4,411 nucleotides of DNA from a virus (lineage: Duplodnaviria; Heunggongvirae; Uroviricota; Caudoviricetes): IMG/VR virus record IMGVR_UViG_2623620506_000004. One strand, written 5' to 3'. Positions 1-4,411 of the stretch are shown here, one piece after another; position 1 is the first letter of the stretch; every line of letters starts with the position of its first letter. A model generated the notes under the pieces. That model saw only the letters and a program-made list of their open reading frames with translations. It had not been told where the DNA came from and did not search any database. Both the position numbers and the translations under genes were made by a program.

Positions 1-1400
1 GATGTCGCCCCTTTGAGTTTAGTCAGCAAATCCTGCGCTACCATCTGGATATGCTCACCGGCTGCGATCGCATAATGACCAGTAGTAATGTGTTCTGTCT
101 GGCCTGTCATCAGCTTGCTGGTTCCCAGAACGCTGGTTATGTCGTTTGCCTGTACTGTTGTTGTTCTGGTTGTTGTTGTGCGTTCTTCCTGATCGCTGTT
201 AATGGTTCGTCTGGCTGAATGCTCCCTGATTTGCTGATCGGTTTCTCTGTGCCAGCTTCCGTCAGTCGTGACGCGCTGAAACACTTCTGCGCGCTGTTGC
301 TGCAGCTGTTCGCCGGGCTTTACATCAGGCAGGTTATGGCCAGCGGGTAAGATTTGCCTGATAACGGGTTTGTCCGGACGTCCTTCAATGTTGGATATTT
401 CCACGATGGTGCCTGCCGGTGGGTAGGCAAAACATCCCGCCTCACTGCCAGCCATGGGGACGGGGAGCGGTACTGCCGGGTAAACGGGCGTGTCGCTTTT
501 ATCGTTGCCGTTCTCATCAAGCAACTGCACATCGACGGCGTAGCGTGGGCGGAAACTGTCGGCCACATCGCCCAGGGTGGTGGGCTCCGTTGGCGCAATG
601 ACGCGCGCCAGCCGGGTATGTAGCGTACCGCTGGCCAGTTCCGGGAACTGTGTTTCCATTTGTCTGCGTAATGGTGATTTGGAAACAGGGCTACCCGTGG
701 CGGTAAGGCGCTCCCATGTCAGGGTCATTTTCTCGTTGTTGAGGGCTACACGGGTAATGCGCCCGGCGGGAAGATTCACGCCCGGTCGCACAGTTTCCAT
801 AAACATGATGTCGATGCTGTTTCCGCCGCTTTGCCCGAGTGTGTACTGTTGCGGAATATCCGGCATGGTAATACTGGCAAACCGTGAATCAGCTGCGCTC
901 CCCACAAATACAGAACCGTCCGGCATAGGGTGCCAGACGTAATCGCTGATACTGAATGCTCGCCCCAGTTGGCTGAGCAGTTGTGCTCCACTGGCGCTGT
1001 GGGTGATGTAGGGAGTTGGTATACTGGCATAATCCGCATCCGGAGTGATAAAAACGATACCGCTTTGTCGCCCCAGATTATCGAGTACCCCCCGCAACGT
1101 CGGGTGTTGCATGGAGCAAGGGAAATCAAAATCCAGCACAGCAGCCGCTTCACGAATAAAAAGGCGACGTGAGCCATTTTCAGCAGGTTGATCGCGCTCA
1201 ATGTAGCCGGAGAAATAGCGCCATGCTTCACCGTCACGGCCGAGATCAATTTGTACCATTGCGCCGGCAAGGCTGTGTTCGGGTGACAGATTGTTAACAG
1301 AAATGAAGCCACGACCGGCAGCATTCAGGGTAAGAACAAGGCTTATATCGGCAATTTCCACCCGTTCGCCATTAATCATGCAGCGTTGTATCAATTTCAT
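1..1400 (-). CDS. Partial CDS (start codon at 1400-1398; 466 codons in window; 3' end beyond window start). Putative tail hub/spike protein: gpD/gp27-like N-terminal region followed by a gpV/gp5/VgrG-type OB-fold.
   Basis: Hand translation of the minus strand from ATG at 1400 gives an open frame to position 3 with no stop (MKLIQRCMINGERVEIADISLVLTLNAAGRGF...); I checked residues 1-370 codon by codon. The ORF track omits it, consistent with a track that only reports ORFs closed by an in-window stop. A strong Shine-Dalgarno (GAGGAAGGGA, 1405-1414) sits just upstream, and the ATG overlaps the stop of the preceding gene (ATGA). Residues ~285-352 (...RYAVDVQLLDENGND...PMAGSEAGCFAYPPAGTIVEISNIEGRPDKPVIRQIL) fit the pattern I recall for the baseplate-spike OB-fold (Pfam Phage_base_V-like). 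The N-terminal ~280 aa loosely resemble the P2 gpD hub family as I recall it. Family assignment is from memory and motif, not from a search. Confidence 0.75.
   Translation of the reverse strand, partial: MKLIQRCMINGERVEIADISLVLTLNAAGRGFISVNNLSPEHSLAGAMVQIDLGRDGEAWRYFSGYIERDQPAENGSRRLFIREAAAVLDFDFPCSMQHPTLRGVLDNLGRQSGIVFITPDADYASIPTPYITHSASGAQLLSQLGRAFSISDYVWHPMPDGSVFVGSAADSRFASITMPDIPQQYTLGQSGGNSIDIMFMETVRPGVNLPAGRITRVALNNEKMTLTWERLTATGSPVSKSPLRRQMETQFPELASGTLHTRLARVIAPTEPTTLGDVADSFRPRYAVDVQLLDENGNDKSDTPVYPAVPLPVPMAGSEAGCFAYPPAGTIVEISNIEGRPDKPVIRQILPAGHNLPDVKPGEQLQQQRAEVFQRVTTDGSWHRETDQQIREHSARRTINSDQEERTTTTRTTTVQANDITSVLGTSKLMTGQTEHITTGHYAIAAGEHIQMVAQDLLTKLKGAT
156..180 (-). repeat. Imperfect trinucleotide tract (ACA/ACC codons on the coding strand; GTT/TGT on plus) encoding a Thr-rich linker RTTTTRTTTV in the hub/spike protein
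   Basis: Plus strand reads ctgttgttgttctggttgttgttgtg. In the coding frame this is ACA ACA ACA ACC AGA ACA ACA ACA GTA. It is an in-frame low-complexity tract lying between the OB-fold and the downstream region. Confidence 0.6.
345..548 (-). other. OB-fold motif region (gpV/gp5/VgrG-like) inside the hub/spike CDS, residues ~285-352
   Basis: Directly verified translation ...PRYAVDVQLLDENGNDKSDTPVYPAVPLPVPMAGSEAGCFAYPPAGTIVEISNIEGRPDKPVIRQILPAGH. The pattern (aromatic/Pro-rich stretch, AG-x-G, hydrophobic beta-strand V-E-I-S, G-x-PD-x-P-V-I) matches the signature of spike OB-folds as I recall it. Domain boundaries are approximate. Confidence 0.5.
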
Positions 1401-1972
1401 GTTTTCCCTTCCTCTTTCACGCTCCCGATGCCAACAGCATCCAGACCAGAGCCAACGGCATCATTGATTTTTTTCCAGAACGAACTTTGCGTATTCATGC
1501 CTTTGTCTGGTGCCTGTTCGCTACCGTTCTGGGTCTGCTGTCTGGCGATGGTTTTCTGCGAACCGCTGCGTGCGGATGCTTTCTCTGGCACGCTTAATTT
1601 TTCCCTGAGAGTAAAGGTAACCTGCCAGTGCATTTTTCCCTGTTGTTCCGTGGCATCAATGCCACCAGAAAATACCCCCTGTCGCATATTGATTGCCTTC
1701 GCGGTAGCGTTAGCAATGCGATATGTTTTTTTAGCACCGTTGCTTTCTGTTGCCTCCGCAAGCTGAAAAATACGGGTCAGAATAGCTTCATCATTAAAAT
1801 CAATAACCCCCGACACGCGCAGCTCTTTAGCCTTGTTTCCCTGCTGGGCGCTCGTGGTGCTGGTTGACTGTCCGGACATATCTTTGTCCGGTAGTTGCAT
1901 GGTGGCGCTGACGGTGATGTTGCGCAGCAGAATGGCTTCCCCGTCAAGCGCAAGGACAATCATCTGGGTCAT
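1397..1972 (-). CDS. Hypothetical protein, 191 aa; position immediately upstream of the hub gene suggests a tube-like/tube-initiator or distal-tail (Dit/gpU-like) role (speculative)
   Basis: ORF track 1397..1972 (-). Start ATG at 1972-1970 is preceded by SD AAGGGAAG (1979-1986) with a 6-nt spacer. Its stop TGA (1399-1397) overlaps the start of the hub gene (ATGA). The N-terminus MTQMIVLALDGEAIL loosely resembles the start of Hcp/tube-fold proteins; the C-terminal third is polar and low-complexity (S/Q/K/G-rich). Function is inferred from position and weak motif only. Confidence 0.7.
   Translation of the reverse strand: MTQMIVLALDGEAILLRNITVSATMQLPDKDMSGQSTSTTSAQQGNKAKELRVSGVIDFNDEAILTRIFQLAEATESNGAKKTYRIANATAKAINMRQGVFSGGIDATEQQGKMHWQVTFTLREKLSVPEKASARSGSQKTIARQQTQNGSEQAPDKGMNTQSSFWKKINDAVGSGLDAVGIGSVKEEGKT
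1405..1414 (-). promoter_or_regulatory. Shine-Dalgarno / ribosome-binding site for the hub/spike CDS
   Basis: Minus strand reads GTGAAAGAGGAAGGGAAAAC immediately 5' of ATG(1400). The purine-rich GAGGAAGGGA is complementary to the 16S rRNA 3' end and lies inside the 3' end of the preceding gene. Confidence 0.7.
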
Positions 1973-2657
1973 GTAGTGCTTCCCTTAGTGATGAGAGATT
2001 ATCGCCGACGAACAGCATCACAGCTGTAAAAACCCACTCGGGGTGTGGGATGTTTTTTTGTATCAGCACTGCAGCCTGGCTAAGGGCTCCCTTGTAGCAA
2101 AAGCGCCACACCGGGCAAAATTTTTGCCGGAGTGCGGCCTGCTGAGCAGCGATTTCCTGTAAGGCTTTATCTCTCGCATTCATGAACTGATGCAGTGATG
2201 ATGACAATGTTTCCAGTGATGTGACGGCAGGAGTGGCTGCCTGTGCAATGGTTGCCGCCAGCGACATACTGCGAGTAGTCTGTGTCGACAGCATTATCGG
2301 TTCCGGAAGTGATGTTACCGGTCTGGCGGGGATTTGCATTCTGCTGATGGTCAGTGAAAGCTGGCTGGAGATCATGCGGGACATTCGCCCCACCTCTGGC
2401 AACGGAAATGCGCCTGAAAATTGCCTGGCGAGTGATAAAAACTCGCCAGCAGAAGGGGCGCAAAATAACAGCGCCACAATGTCCTTTTCTGTGTTTTCTG
2501 TCAGATATGGCAGAAGTGCTGATATCGCATTATCCGGGCTGAGATAGCGCCCTGATGGTGTGATATTCCCGGTATTTTCTGACCACGGATGAAGGCAGAC
2601 CACTGAACAGCAGATGTTCATGGCTGCCGGACGCAGAATAGCCTTTTCCCATTTCAT
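1944..2657 (-). CDS. Hypothetical protein, 237 aa, with cysteine clusters at both termini (C16, C17, C21, H23; C181, C187; C234, C236) and an S/T/L/A-rich central region; function unknown
   Basis: ORF track 1944..2657 (-). The start ATG (2657-2655) overlaps the stop of the upstream gene (ATGA at 2657-2654), and the 3' end overlaps the next gene by 29 nt, so it exactly fills the space between two better-supported genes. Codon choice looks ordinary for an enterobacterial gene (CTG, CCG, GCG frequent). The composition is unusual, so I rate it lower than its neighbours. Confidence 0.6.
   Translation of the reverse strand: MKWEKAILRPAAMNICCSVVCLHPWSENTGNITPSGRYLSPDNAISALLPYLTENTEKDIVALLFCAPSAGEFLSLARQFSGAFPLPEVGRMSRMISSQLSLTISRMQIPARPVTSLPEPIMLSTQTTRSMSLAATIAQAATPAVTSLETLSSSLHQFMNARDKALQEIAAQQAALRQKFCPVWRFCYKGALSQAAVLIQKNIPHPEWVFTAVMLFVGDNLSSLREALHDPDDCPCA
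1979..1986 (-). promoter_or_regulatory. Shine-Dalgarno / ribosome-binding site for the 191-aa CDS
   Basis: Minus strand reads AAGGGAAG followed by a 6-nt spacer (CACTAC) and ATG(1972); it lies within the 3' end of the 237-aa CDS. Confidence 0.6.
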
Positions 2658-3226
2658 TCTGCATTGCCCACCTGAAATGTGCGAATGGTCGCAAGGTTAT
2701 CCAGGGTGACCAGTGTGTTTTTCATCTTTCGCTGGCGTTGGTAAATTTCATCATTGCGATCGACAATGGCCCTCGCCATCTCTGCGGCCAATTCCTCAAG
2801 CGCCTGCATTGACAGCTTCACTTGCTGATTATTGGCATCACCCCACGTTAGTGCAGTGCGCGCAATGCCGGATTTCGACGCCATTACCACCGGAGAAAGG
2901 CGTGCCAGTGAGTCAGGGCCAGCGTTCCAGGTTCGACCGCCCCATTCAATGATGAACTGTTGCGATTCCTGCTGCGCGCGCCATGCGTTGATTTCCCTGC
3001 GCTTTGCTGCTTTTGCAGCTTCTAGCATTTCTGGTGTGGTGGCAAACGTGGCGATCTCGCCCCATTTGCCGCTTTGCAGCTCCTGCCAGATGTGCTGGCC
3101 TGTTTCGGCTGTATCTTCTGCCGTGGCTGTGTAGGGGATGGGGGTATCCATCCCTTCAAACAAAACTTCGCAGTCAATCGCACCGCTCTCGAGATAGCGA
3201 GGTTTTTTAATTTCCTGAATATTCAT
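2654..3226 (-). CDS. Hypothetical protein, 190 aa (start at ATG 3226, not the upstream in-frame ATG at 3280); alpha/beta protein, possibly a chaperone/assembly factor for the upstream structural protein (speculative)
   Basis: ORF track 2654..3280 (-), but the ATG at 3226-3224 is preceded by SD GAGGGA (3233-3238) with a 6-nt spacer and lies 10 nt after the stop of the upstream gene (TGA 3239-3237). The ATG at 3280 would overlap the upstream gene by 44 nt and has no SD. The product MNIQEIKKPRYLESGAIDCEVLFEG... has predicted helical segments (PEMLEAAKAAKRREINAWRAQQE; QALEELAAEMARAIVDRNDEIYQRQRK). It may belong to a phage tail fiber assembly or tail assembly chaperone-like family, but I cannot confirm this without a profile search. 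Confidence 0.7.
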   Translation of the reverse strand: MNIQEIKKPRYLESGAIDCEVLFEGMDTPIPYTATAEDTAETGQHIWQELQSGKWGEIATFATTPEMLEAAKAAKRREINAWRAQQESQQFIIEWGGRTWNAGPDSLARLSPVVMASKSGIARTALTWGDANNQQVKLSMQALEELAAEMARAIVDRNDEIYQRQRKMKNTLVTLDNLATIRTFQVGNAE

Positions 3227-3232
3227 TTGCAG

Positions 3233-3238
3233 TCCCTC
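3233..3238 (-). promoter_or_regulatory. Shine-Dalgarno / ribosome-binding site for the 190-aa CDS
   Basis: Minus strand reads TGAGGGACTGCAAATG. GAGGGA overlaps the TGA stop of the upstream CDS and sits 6 nt upstream of ATG(3226). Confidence 0.6.
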
Positions 3239-4411
3239 ATGCAGTTCTGACAAACAGACCAACCAGTGCGCTGTCGCCACGAGCGTTATCCGCTGCTCCG
3301 TTTAGTGCAATGTAAGCGCCTGGTAAACTCCATCCCCGACATCCTCTTGTCGTTATTAAAGGCGTTGCTGTGGCAACATTTTCCCTGTCACTTGGAATTG
3401 CAATGGACAGTGGCGTCAGAGACGACCCCGGGTAGGCATAACCGCGTGTCATGCTGATATTGGTGTCTCCGTCAGCGGTCCCCTGGTATGCTGCCAGAAT
3501 CAGTCCACCGACGTCCGGGTCTCCAAGACTTGTTGGAGCAATGCGTGCAGACAAGATGTCAGCAAAATCGACGCCTTTTAAATTCAGCTTTACCCAGCCA
3601 GAAAACTGGCTGCCAGCGAGTCGGTTATAGAAAATTTCTCCGTTAACACCGTAAAAAGTAACCACTTTACCCTTGTTATCAGGACTGGCATTGCTGGCAA
3701 CTGTATCGGGGATTTTGATATCAACTATCCCCGTAAAAACAACACCTTTAATAATTGGGTTATACCTGTTAACACTACCATATTGAGTTACCGCATATTG
3801 ACCTGGATTGGTGTTTTTGACCCACTCCAGAAACTCTGTTGGCCCGTTTCCGGAACTAAACGATTCTGATGAGCGGAAGATAGCTCCGTATCCGAATGCA
3901 CCGGGTATTGCCAGGCGGCCTTCGGTACGGTCGTAAATGTCTGTTTGCACATCCATCGTGGCGGCGCTTTTCAGTCCCAGATTATCGCGGGATTCCCGCT
4001 GAGCATCTTCCCCCCCTGCTGCAATTTCTGACAAACGGTTAGGGATTTTCAGCATTGATTTCAGCTCTGGGTAAAGATCTGTCTGCCAGCTCTGCGGAGG
4101 AACGGTAATTTGCGCAGCCTTAGCAATACCACTGTATATAATCGTGAAATTACGAATAAGTGACTCACCTGTTACTTTTTGTCGAACAGGTGTTTTTATT
4201 ACGCCACATAGTGTTCCACTGGTCTGATGGATGAGGCAAATCCAGTCATAGCTGAATGCACAGTCATCAGGAACAACTGCGCTACACACAATATTGTCCG
4301 GGCTTAACTGGCCGTAGGTCAGTTCATTCACAGCATATGTGATTTTTTCTTCCGGAACGGTATTATCTTCGCGTGTTGGTTCCCGCTCCATCAGGGCAAA
4401 AATAATAGTGT
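3237..4411 (-). CDS. Partial CDS (5' end beyond window end; at least 391 codons in window): beta-rich structural protein, candidate tail fiber/receptor-binding protein or major tail protein; role unresolved
   Basis: ORF track 3237..4391 (-) starts at an internal Met. The same frame stays open upstream to the window edge (codons 4392-4409 read ...TIIFAL before MEREPTRE) and no SD precedes the ATG at 4391, so the true start is probably outside the window. Stop is TGA at 3239-3237. The composition is rich in G/S/T/N/Y/V with few charged helical stretches (e.g. GQYAVTQYGSVNRYNPIIKGVVFTGIVDIKIPDTVASNASPDNKGKVVTFYGVNGEIFYNRLAGSQFSGWVKLNLKG), typical of beta-structured virion proteins. Confidence 0.75.
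   Translation of the reverse strand, partial: TIIFALMEREPTREDNTVPEEKITYAVNELTYGQLSPDNIVCSAVVPDDCAFSYDWICLIHQTSGTLCGVIKTPVRQKVTGESLIRNFTIIYSGIAKAAQITVPPQSWQTDLYPELKSMLKIPNRLSEIAAGGEDAQRESRDNLGLKSAATMDVQTDIYDRTEGRLAIPGAFGYGAIFRSSESFSSGNGPTEFLEWVKNTNPGQYAVTQYGSVNRYNPIIKGVVFTGIVDIKIPDTVASNASPDNKGKVVTFYGVNGEIFYNRLAGSQFSGWVKLNLKGVDFADILSARIAPTSLGDPDVGGLILAAYQGTADGDTNISMTRGYAYPGSSLTPLSIAIPSDRENVATATPLITTRGCRGWSLPGAYIALNGAADNARGDSALVGLFVRTA

What the first reader, a model, noticed from the sequence alone, without database searches (positions are those of the whole stretch)
2654..4411. Beta-rich structural protein followed by a tightly coupled 190-aa alpha/beta protein: possible receptor-binding protein plus chaperone pair
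The downstream gene starts 10 nt after the stop of the structural gene, with its SD overlapping that stop. This arrangement is typical of tail fiber/tail fiber assembly pairs and of tube/chaperone pairs. If gene 1 is a receptor-binding protein, this pair determines host range. Nothing in the sequence lets me choose between the fiber and tube interpretations.
Basis: inference. Interest (0 to 1): 0.4.

Follow-up and report, generated by a model that had tools for sequence, protein, structure and literature searches.

The report
Second tail fibre with DUF4376 chaperone
This is an ordinary prophage host-recognition cassette: an accessory tail-fibre gene followed, 10 bases later, by a small fibre-folding chaperone of the DUF4376 class, in an HP1/P2-family E. 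coli prophage.

Summary
On the minus strand, a fibre gene (4411..3240, stop 3239-3237) is followed 10 nt later by a 190-aa gene (3226..2657), and a GAGG Shine-Dalgarno overlaps the stop. One correction: gene 1 is cut by the window. Identical database proteins are 416 aa and start 96 nt upstream of the in-window ATG.

Gene 1 is a tail fibre, not a tube. It has the N-terminal tail-collar domain (PF12571) and matches tail-fibre PHROGs. In full-length relatives the sheath, tube and tail-assembly chaperone genes lie elsewhere. It is the second fibre of the prophage; the first has its own Caudo_TAP partner.

Gene 2 is not Caudo_TAP. It is a DUF4376 (PF14301) protein, the family of Alteromonas phage V22 gp27 and the Campylobacter CJIE1 fibre partner. 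Published co-expression experiments show both are needed for fibre function.

In 57 of 58 distinct related loci, a gene 2 homologue lies -1 to 14 nt after a fibre. The fibre's distal two-thirds plus the first ~45 codons of gene 2 form one swapped DNA block, also found in P2-like prophages.

This is a new member of a known kind, of low interest.

The parts
3240..4411 (-). Gene 1: accessory (second) tail fibre, residues 27-416 of a 416-aa protein. The 5' end lies outside the window; the stop TGA is at 3239-3237.
   Evidence: ORF and sequence. Full length taken from P0121, which is identical to the window in all but one residue, and from loci L003-L005. Alignment of the 5' end with relatives. Pfam PF12571 and tail-fibre PHROGs.
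4068..4411 (-). Tail-collar (baseplate-attachment) domain of gene 1, residues ~27-140. This is the backbone-specific part.
   Evidence: PF12571 covers residues 3-123 of the full protein. It is 34% identical (E 2e-24) to the N-terminus of fibre 1 of the same prophage. Its DNA is 92-98% identical to other HP1-like E. coli prophages that carry different fibre tips.
3885..4040 (-). Conserved neck motif (residues ~150-201: NRLSEIAAGGEDAQRESRDNLGLKSAATMDVQTDIYDRTEGRLAIPGAFGYG). It lies at the junction between the anchor and the distal module.
   Evidence: Conserved at 67-87% in many fibres whose N-terminal anchors are unrelated. It is the only stretch that aligns with V22 gp26 (43% over 42 aa, E 0.004). 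The DNA identity breakpoint lies at about 4050.
3240..3884 (-). Distal, putative receptor-binding, module of gene 1: residues ~202-416, two beta-rich sub-domains.
   Evidence: 96-98% identical to the C-termini of fibres with a different N-terminal anchor (PF08400) in P2-like prophages. AlphaFold2 gives two beta-rich blocks at pLDDT ~70-85. The weak Foldseek hits include phage tail, baseplate and fibre proteins, among them R1/R2 pyocin fibres.
3233..3238 (-). Shine-Dalgarno GAGGGA for gene 2, overlapping the stop codon of gene 1.
   Evidence: Read from the sequence. The spacing from GAGG to the ATG is 8 nt.
2654..3226 (-). Gene 2: 190-aa DUF4376-class tail-fibre chaperone, stop codon 2656-2654 included.
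   Evidence: PF14301, E 5.6e-16, 59 bits against a cut-off of 25. phrog_1141, E 1.1e-79. hhalign to V22 gp27: E 2.9e-5 over 150 columns. V22 gp27 itself matches PF14301 at 3.2e-21. AlphaFold2 mean pLDDT 90.2.
3041..3226 (-). N-terminal beta domain of gene 2, residues 1-62: three strands plus a helix. It is the part that travels with the fibre tip and is the inferred tip-contact, specificity element.
   Evidence: Secondary structure. It is 84-100% identical where the fibre tip is 89-98% identical, while the rest of the protein stays at 56-80%. Mantel rho 0.44 (p 0.001) for residues 1-30 against the tip. DNA is 97-100% identical to L107 down to about 3090.
2711..3019 (-). DUF4376 domain of gene 2, residues 70-172: helix, hairpin, helix, hairpin, long helix.
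3090..4050 (-). Horizontally exchanged block: fibre codons ~146-416, the 10-nt spacer, and the first ~45 codons of gene 2.
   Evidence: Windowed DNA identity is 97-100% to a P2-like prophage (L107) inside this block and 33-78% outside it (bins with partial alignment coverage included). Identity to the HP1-like backbone relatives (L001, L002) is high only outside 4050-2500.

Best explanation
Genes 1 and 2 are a host-recognition cassette of an HP1/P2-family temperate myovirus prophage of E. coli.

Gene 1 (416 aa in full) is the phage's second tail fibre.
- Its N-terminal tail-collar domain docks the fibre on the baseplate. It is a paralogue of the same domain in fibre 1.
- A conserved neck motif follows.
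- The distal ~215 residues form the receptor-binding end.

Gene 2 is translated straight after gene 1 from the same mRNA; its Shine-Dalgarno overlaps the stop of gene 1. It is an intermolecular fibre chaperone of the DUF4376 class.

By analogy with Alteromonas phages V22 and A5, three copies are expected to form a helical cap on the C-terminal tip of the nascent fibre. The N-terminal strands would pair with strands of the fibre head, nucleating trimerisation from the C-terminal end. The cap would then fall off or stay only loosely bound.

What is shown here: the gene anatomy, the family memberships, the conserved synteny, and the mosaic block that joins the fibre tip to the 5' end of gene 2.

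What is inferred: trimerisation, cap formation, which surface contacts the fibre, dependence of gene 1 on gene 2, and the receptor.
For: Gene 1:
- PF12571 and tail-fibre PHROGs.
- It sits after baseplate J, an I-like gene, fibre 1 and a Caudo_TAP gene in L003-L005 and in E. coli chromosomes.
- Its N-terminus is a paralogue of fibre 1's N-terminus.
- Its weak fold hits include phage tail, baseplate and fibre proteins.

Gene 2:
- PF14301 above the gathering score.
- It aligns along most of its length with V22 gp27, which matches the same Pfam family.
- V22 gp26 binds cells only after co-expression with gp27 (PMC7289586, read).
- The Campylobacter CJIE1 H-fibre needs its DUF4376 neighbour (PMC7882524).
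- AlphaFold-Multimer cap models exist for V22 and A5 (PMC10579305).

Synteny: 57 of 58 distinct pairs have a gap of -1 to 14 nt. The same cassette occurs on HP1-like, P2-like and Mu-like phiP27 backbones.

Chaperone rather than adhesin: the gene 2 family is conserved (mean 74% identity) while the fibre tips diverge (mean 38%).

The tip and the first ~45 codons of gene 2 move as one block.
Against: - No experiment exists on this protein pair or on any E. coli member that I could find.
- Identity to V22 gp27 is only 20%, and the hhalign probability is a modest 74%.
- Gene 1's distal part is not detectably homologous to V22 gp26 beyond a 42-residue neck motif.
- The gene 1 monomer model is poor (mean pLDDT 63.5), and no fold match reaches E 0.001.
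- The co-variation of gene 2's N-terminus with the tip decays steadily along the gene, which is also what plain physical linkage would give.
- PHROGs labels the gene 2 family 'tail fiber protein'.
Confidence: 0.8

Rival explanations
1. Gene 2 is not a transient chaperone. It is a permanent distal component of the fibre, a tip cap or adhesin as in Mu Tfa or T2 gp38, and takes part in receptor binding.
For: PHROGs annotates phrog_1141 as 'tail fiber protein'. The A5 gp9 homologue stays bound to its fibre in high salt (PMC10579305). The N-terminal 30 residues of gene 2 are its most variable internal part and co-vary with the tip.
Against: Adhesins are normally the most variable element. Here the gene 2 family averages 74% identity while fibre tips average 38%. 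V22 gp27 separates from the fibre on gel filtration, and the fibre still binds cells afterwards (PMC7289586).
Confidence: 0.13
2. The cassette is an inactive or dispensable remnant. The phage uses fibre 1 with its Caudo_TAP partner, and the second fibre set is decaying cargo.
For: In E. coli SC418 (L001), RefSeq annotates the region corresponding to gene 1 as two pseudogene fragments. My own ORF scan nevertheless read an open 683-codon frame just upstream of the gene 2 homologue there, so this evidence is not clean. In Shigella flexneri and one E. coli genome, many copies of the gene 2 homologue have no intact fibre upstream.
Against: In the window both frames are open, tightly coupled and preceded by a good Shine-Dalgarno. 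Proteins 99-100% identical occur in three separate metagenome assemblies. The exchanged block is 97-100% identical to a copy in P2-like prophages, which points to recent spread of an intact unit.
Confidence: 0.06
3. Gene 1 is a tail tube or other core tail protein, and gene 2 is its assembly chaperone.
Against: Tube (PF10772 HP1_Orf24), sheath (DUF2586) and tail-assembly chaperone (PF10963) are separate genes upstream in the same prophage. Gene 1 matches no tube, sheath, capsid or portal profile. Gene 1 has the tail-collar fibre domain.
Confidence: 0.01

Closest known systems
Alteromonas phage V22 gp26/gp27 and A5 gp8/gp9: tail fibre plus DUF4376 intermolecular chaperone (PMC7289586, PMC10579305)
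   Same: The partner protein is of the same size (190 against 195 aa) and has the same C-terminal PF14301 domain. It aligns over ~150 columns. It lies directly downstream of the fibre gene on the same strand, with 12 nt between the genes in V22. The fibre shares the neck motif R..LGL.SAAT.DV...GAFG.G.
   Different: Only ~20% identity. The fibre bodies and heads are not detectably homologous. Gene 1 carries a P2/pyocin-type tail-collar anchor that Pfam does not find in V22 gp26. The host is enterobacterial, and the phage is a temperate HP1/P2-family prophage rather than a lytic marine myovirus. No experiment exists for this pair.
Campylobacter CJIE1-like prophage H-fibre plus downstream DUF4376 gene (PMC7882524)
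   Same: A fibre with an N-terminal tail-collar (DUF3751/PF12571) anchor is followed by a DUF4376 protein. According to the paper, that protein must be co-expressed for the fibre to work. This is the same two-gene architecture as here.
   Different: The sequences were not compared here because I did not have them. That prophage is Mu-like, and its host is Campylobacter.
Caudo_TAP tail-fibre assembly proteins: lambda Tfa, Mu U, P2 G (PF02413)
   Same: Same position, size and presumed job. The prophage uses one of these for its first fibre.
phiP27 L56/L57 and the second fibre cassettes of P2-like E. coli prophages
   Same: Gene 2 homologues at 66-76% identity sit directly behind a fibre whose tip is homologous to gene 1's tip. 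Tip identity is up to 96-98% in L107 and L110. These too are second cassettes following a first fibre and a Caudo_TAP gene.
   Different: Their fibres use the 'prophage tail fibre N-terminal' anchor (PF08400) instead of the tail-collar anchor. They are annotated only as hypothetical, DUF4376 or tail-fibre proteins.

Membership tests
DUF4376-class tail-fibre chaperones (V22 gp27 type) | C-terminal PF14301 (DUF4376) domain above Pfam's gathering score | tested here: met
   E 5.6e-16, 59.4 bits against a cut-off of 25, residues 70-172. V22 gp27 scores 3.2e-21 on the same model.
DUF4376-class tail-fibre chaperones (V22 gp27 type) | About 190-240 aa, with an N-terminal strand region followed by a helical body carrying beta-hairpins | tested here: met
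   AlphaFold2 at pLDDT 90: strands 3-34, helices 65-88, 104-117 and 140-174, hairpins 92-101 and 125-139. hhalign covers residues 21-186 against gp27 residues 40-189.
DUF4376-class tail-fibre chaperones (V22 gp27 type) | Encoded immediately downstream of, and co-oriented with, a tail-fibre gene | tested here: met
   10-nt gap in the window. Gap of -1 to 14 nt in 57 of 58 distinct related pairs.
DUF4376-class tail-fibre chaperones (V22 gp27 type) | The fibre is functional only, or better, when co-expressed with the partner | not testable with these tools
   Needs co-expression and binding assays like those of PMC7289586.
DUF4376-class tail-fibre chaperones (V22 gp27 type) | Homotrimeric cap on the fibre tip; fold like the intramolecular chaperone domains of K1F and T5 | tested here: inconclusive
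   [not shown]
Caudo_TAP (PF02413) tail-fibre assembly proteins | Match to PF02413, or detectable homology to a member | tested here: not met
   No Pfam match at E <= 0.1. hhalign probability 0.1% against the prophage's own Caudo_TAP protein.
P2/Mu/R-pyocin-type tail-collar fibres | N-terminal PF12571 (DUF3751) baseplate-attachment domain | tested here: met
   E 3.9e-10, 40.4 bits against a cut-off of 23, residues 3-123 of the full-length P0121. E 5.5e-6 on the window part.
P2/Mu/R-pyocin-type tail-collar fibres | Gene placed after the baseplate J and I genes of a contractile-tail cluster | tested here: met
   In L003-L005, L001 and L002 the order is TMP, DUF2590, Baseplate_J, I-like, fibre 1, Caudo_TAP, gene 1, gene 2.
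P2/Mu/R-pyocin-type tail-collar fibres | Trimeric shaft and distal receptor-binding head | tested here: inconclusive
   The monomer model has mean pLDDT 63.5, and residues 125-203 are unstructured. The best Foldseek hits include phage tail, baseplate and fibre proteins, among them R1/R2 pyocin fibres, but none reaches E <= 0.001.
Tail tube plus tail-assembly chaperone pair | Tube-family fold or profile, with no other tube gene in the phage | tested here: not met
   No tube profile matches. Tube (PF10772) and the tail-assembly chaperone (PF10963) are encoded upstream.

The most novel reading that the evidence does not exclude
DUF4376 chaperones may be two-module proteins. A short N-terminal strand domain (about the first 45-60 residues) would be the tip-specific adaptor, inherited as one recombination unit with the fibre's receptor-binding end. 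The conserved C-terminal DUF4376 body would be a generic, prefoldin-like oligomerising holdase usable with many tips. If so, retargeting such fibres would need the fibre tip plus only the 5' end of the chaperone gene. The dual-fibre cassette would then be a portable host-range add-on shared by HP1-, P2- and Mu-like tails.
Probability: 0.35. Interest if true: 0.4.

Novelty: new member of a known kind. Interest (0 to 1): 0.18.

Why it matters
Fibre-plus-chaperone pairs set phage host range and are the parts swapped when phages or pyocins are retargeted. Knowing that this fibre's partner is a DUF4376 protein, not the Caudo_TAP type, tells an engineer which gene to carry along. The mapped exchange block (fibre codon ~146 to chaperone codon ~45) gives natural junctions for making chimeras. 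Beyond that, the locus is a routine prophage feature. Near-identical proteins are already in public databases, though named only by domain.

Tried and rejected
- Caudo_TAP membership of gene 2: no Pfam match, and hhalign probability 0.1%.
- NCBIfam: nothing for either gene.
- PDB sequence search: nothing for gene 1, only noise for gene 2.
- Foldseek of the gene 2 model against the PDB: only noise such as actin. The published likeness to intramolecular chaperone domains, or to Mu Tfa, could therefore not be confirmed.
- Foldseek of the gene 1 monomer: the best hits include phage tail, baseplate and fibre proteins, but all are above E 0.001.
- Homology of gene 1 to the V22 fibre gp26: only a 42-residue neck motif aligns.
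- Megablast against the phage collection: a single hit, an Actinobacillus phage, over gene 2 only.
- The co-variation test cannot separate functional co-evolution from physical linkage, because the signal decays steadily along gene 2.
- My first pass at locating start codons in related loci was wrong for copies that start with GTG, so I redid it.
Full report
**Observation**

All coding in the window is on the minus strand. Gene 1 reads from the window edge at 4411 down to 3240 and stops with TGA at 3239-3237. Ten bases further on (3236-3227), ATG 3226-3224 opens a 190-codon frame that ends at 2656-2654.

The junction reads TGAGGGACTGCAAATG. A GAGG Shine-Dalgarno therefore shares two bases with the stop codon and sits 8 nt before the start.

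One correction is needed. The ATG at 4391, which gives the 384-aa ORF, is internal.
- The frame has no stop up to the window edge.
- Two E. coli relatives continue the frame to a start 96 nt further upstream.
- Database proteins 99-100% identical to the window's product are 416 aa and begin MSALLTKAFEKWVAEC.
- In three metagenome contigs the gene is called at 416 aa, 6 nt after the preceding gene.

The window therefore holds residues 27-416.

**What gene 1 is**

- The window part matches Pfam PF12571, 'phage tail-collar fibre protein, N-terminal', from profile position 42 onwards (E 5.5e-6).
- The full-length protein matches profile positions 7-135 (E 3.9e-10, above the gathering score).
- PHROGs gives tail-fibre families for both halves. 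phrog_2636 covers residues 106-383 at E 1.9e-73; phrog_13714 and others cover the N-terminus.

The context settles the choice between fibre and tube. In contigs L003-L005 and in E. coli chromosomes, the gene order is as follows:
1. P2-type capsid genes
2. DUF2586 (the sheath position)
3. HP1_Orf24 (tube)
4. holin
5. M15 peptidase
6. Phage_TAC_10
7. tape measure
8. DUF2590
9. Baseplate_J
10. an I-like gene
11. fibre 1 (566 aa; PF12571 plus Phage_fiber_2)
12. a Caudo_TAP protein (183 aa)
13. gene 1
14. gene 2
15. a 237-aa protein
16. HP1_ORF34
17. a 565-aa protein

Gene 1 is therefore the second fibre of an HP1/P2-family myovirus prophage. Its first 145 residues are 34% identical (E 2e-24) to the N-terminus of fibre 1, so both fibres carry the same kind of baseplate anchor.

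The AlphaFold2 monomer is only moderate, with mean pLDDT 63.5. It has folded N-terminal and distal blocks and an unstructured stretch at residues 125-203. That is plausible for a protein that folds as a trimer. The best Foldseek hits include phage tail, baseplate and fibre proteins, among them the R1 and R2 pyocin fibres, but none reaches E 0.001. I use this only as the absence of any capsid, portal, sheath or tube signal.

**What gene 2 is**

Gene 2 matches PF14301 (DUF4376) at E 5.6e-16, over residues 70-172, and phrog_1141 at E 1.1e-79. A profile of gene 2 homologues shows no relation to the Caudo_TAP protein of the same prophage (hhalign probability 0.1%).

The literature search for DUF4376 returned nine papers. 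Three report experiments that matter here.
- In Alteromonas myovirus V22, the fibre gp26 decorates host cells only when co-expressed with the downstream gp27. gp27 has a C-terminal DUF4376 domain and separates from the fibre on gel filtration (PMC7289586).
- A follow-up paper models gp27 and A5 gp9 as homotrimeric caps on the fibre tip. The chaperone strands extend a sheet of the fibre head. The paper also shows that A5 gp9 stays bound in high salt (PMC10579305).
- In Campylobacter CJIE1 prophages, a fibre with a tail-collar anchor needs its DUF4376 neighbour to work when grafted onto R2 pyocin (PMC7882524).

I fetched V22 gp27. It matches PF14301 at 3.2e-21. It aligns with the gene 2 profile over 150 columns, residues 21-186 against 40-189 (E 2.9e-5, probability 74%, 20% identity).

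The gene 2 model is confident (mean pLDDT 90.2). It has three N-terminal strands and a helix (residues 3-52), followed by helix 65-88, a hairpin, helix 104-117, a hairpin and a long helix 140-174.

**Is the pairing systematic?**

I collected loci that encode gene 2 relatives from species-representative genomes and from viral contigs, then located the partner gene and the ORF ending next to it. I found 58 distinct pairs with an intact upstream ORF.
- In 57 of them the gap is -1 to 14 nt.
- In nearly all, the upstream protein ends with a region that aligns to the C-terminal tip of gene 1, at 31-89% identity.
- The N-terminal anchors differ: tail-collar in HP1-like prophages, and PF08400 in others (checked for phiP27 L56 and P0158).

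The same arrangement of first fibre, Caudo_TAP, second fibre and DUF4376 is present in phiP27 (L54-L57), in 'Actinobacillus' phage pPE4 (gp67-gp70) and in a P2-like prophage (L107). In L110 and L111 the second cassette instead follows gpD at the end of a P2-like tail cluster.

**Mosaic structure**

Against a P2-like prophage (L107), the window is 97-100% identical at the DNA level from about 4050 to about 3090, and 33-78% identical outside that block. Against the HP1-like relatives L001 and L002, it is 92-98% identical at 4411-4050 and again below about 2500, and much lower in between.

At the protein level, where the fibre tip is 89-98% identical, the first 62 residues of the partner are 84-100% identical, while the rest stays at 56-80%. 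That lower range is the same as in loci with unrelated tips.

A Mantel test over the 58 pairs gives rho 0.44 (p 0.001) for gene 2 residues 1-30 against the tip. The value falls steadily to 0.06 for residues 171-190. Overall, the partner family is well conserved (mean 74% identity) while the tips are not (mean 38%).

This fits a model in which the N-terminal strands contact the tip and the DUF4376 body is generic. It also agrees with the strand-pairing interface modelled for V22 and A5. However, a steady decay with distance is also what physical linkage alone would produce, so the specificity role of the N-terminus remains an inference.

**Mechanism proposed**

The two genes are translated in sequence from one late mRNA. 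Gene 2 trimers would bind the C-terminal head of three nascent gene 1 chains and nucleate trimerisation from the distal end. They would then be released, or stay weakly bound as a cap until the fibre meets its receptor. The fibre would attach to the baseplate through its tail-collar domain, either alongside fibre 1 or in competition with it.

Shown here: anatomy, family membership, synteny and the mosaic block. Inferred: oligomeric state, interface, dependence on gene 2, and occupancy of the baseplate.

**Rivals**

- Gene 2 as a permanent tip component or adhesin. The PHROG label and the behaviour of A5 gp9 speak for it. The conservation pattern and the release of V22 gp27 speak against it.
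- A decaying, unused second cassette. RefSeq annotates the gene 1 region of L001 as two pseudogene fragments, and many Shigella copies lack an intact fibre. However, my ORF scan read an open 683-codon frame in L001. The window's copy is intact, and the block is nearly identical to copies in other prophages.
- A tube-plus-chaperone pair. This is excluded by the context.

**Comparison and novelty**

The pair works like, and gene 2 is a member of, the DUF4376 class of fibre chaperones. Gene 1 is a member of the tail-collar fibre family. Its distal module belongs to a widespread enterobacterial prophage tip type with no characterised receptor that I could find. Near-identical proteins are already public, named by domain only.

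This is a new member of a known kind. The small added value is threefold: the partner is not the textbook Tfa family, this is the accessory fibre of a dual-fibre phage, and the natural exchange unit includes the first ~45 codons of the chaperone gene.

**Verdict**

Interest is low (0.18).

Noticed in passing
window 1947-2657 (-): A 237-aa ORF whose ATG overlaps the stop of gene 2 (ATGA at 2657-2654). It has no Pfam or NCBIfam match and hits only PHROGs of unknown function (phrog_31292, phrog_1677). Its first ~50 codons lie in the variable DNA segment; the rest is 90-100% identical to other HP1-like prophages.
   Followed up: partly
window 1400-1972 (-) and 1-1400 (-): An HP1_ORF34 'baseplate complex protein' (PF25759, E 9.7e-54) overlaps the 237-aa ORF by 29 nt. 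It is followed, with an ATGA overlap, by the first 466 residues of a 565-aa protein. That protein matches phrog_2258 (baseplate) and weakly matches gp5/VgrG OB-fold profiles. The two fibre cassettes therefore sit in the middle of the baseplate genes rather than at the end of the tail cluster.
   Followed up: partly
L008-L023 (Shigella flexneri CP182556.1 and E. coli CP178302.1): These two genomes carry 7 and 9 copies of the gene 2 homologue. Most copies start with GTG, and many have no intact fibre ORF upstream, which suggests prophage remnants with disrupted fibres.
   Followed up: no
window 2721-3185; L007 (Actinobacillus phage vB_Apl-pPE4, PP818812.1): The only megablast hit of the whole window in the phage collection is 80% DNA identity over gene 2, to a phage recorded as infecting Actinobacillus pleuropneumoniae. 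That phage has the same double fibre cassette. This could be exchange between bacterial families or a question about the recorded host.
   Followed up: partly
phage records AF151091, AF151674-AF151676 (P-EibA/C/D/E): 'ORF-191', at the start of four records of the immunoglobulin-binding Eib prophages, is a gene 2 homologue (32-36% identity over the full length).
   Followed up: no
proteins P0154 and P0161 (relatives of gene 1): Longer relatives repeat the unit that begins DIYDRTEGR.A.PGAFGYG. This gives fibres with two tandem copies of the first distal sub-domain, reminiscent of the 'knob duplication' described for Alteromonas phage A5 (sequences).
   Followed up: no
[not shown]
   Followed up: partly
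window 3227-3280 (-): An in-frame GTG at 3280 would give a 208-aa version of gene 2 overlapping the end of gene 1. Some database entries use it (P0042, P0070). Homologues and the Shine-Dalgarno support the ATG at 3226.
   Followed up: yes
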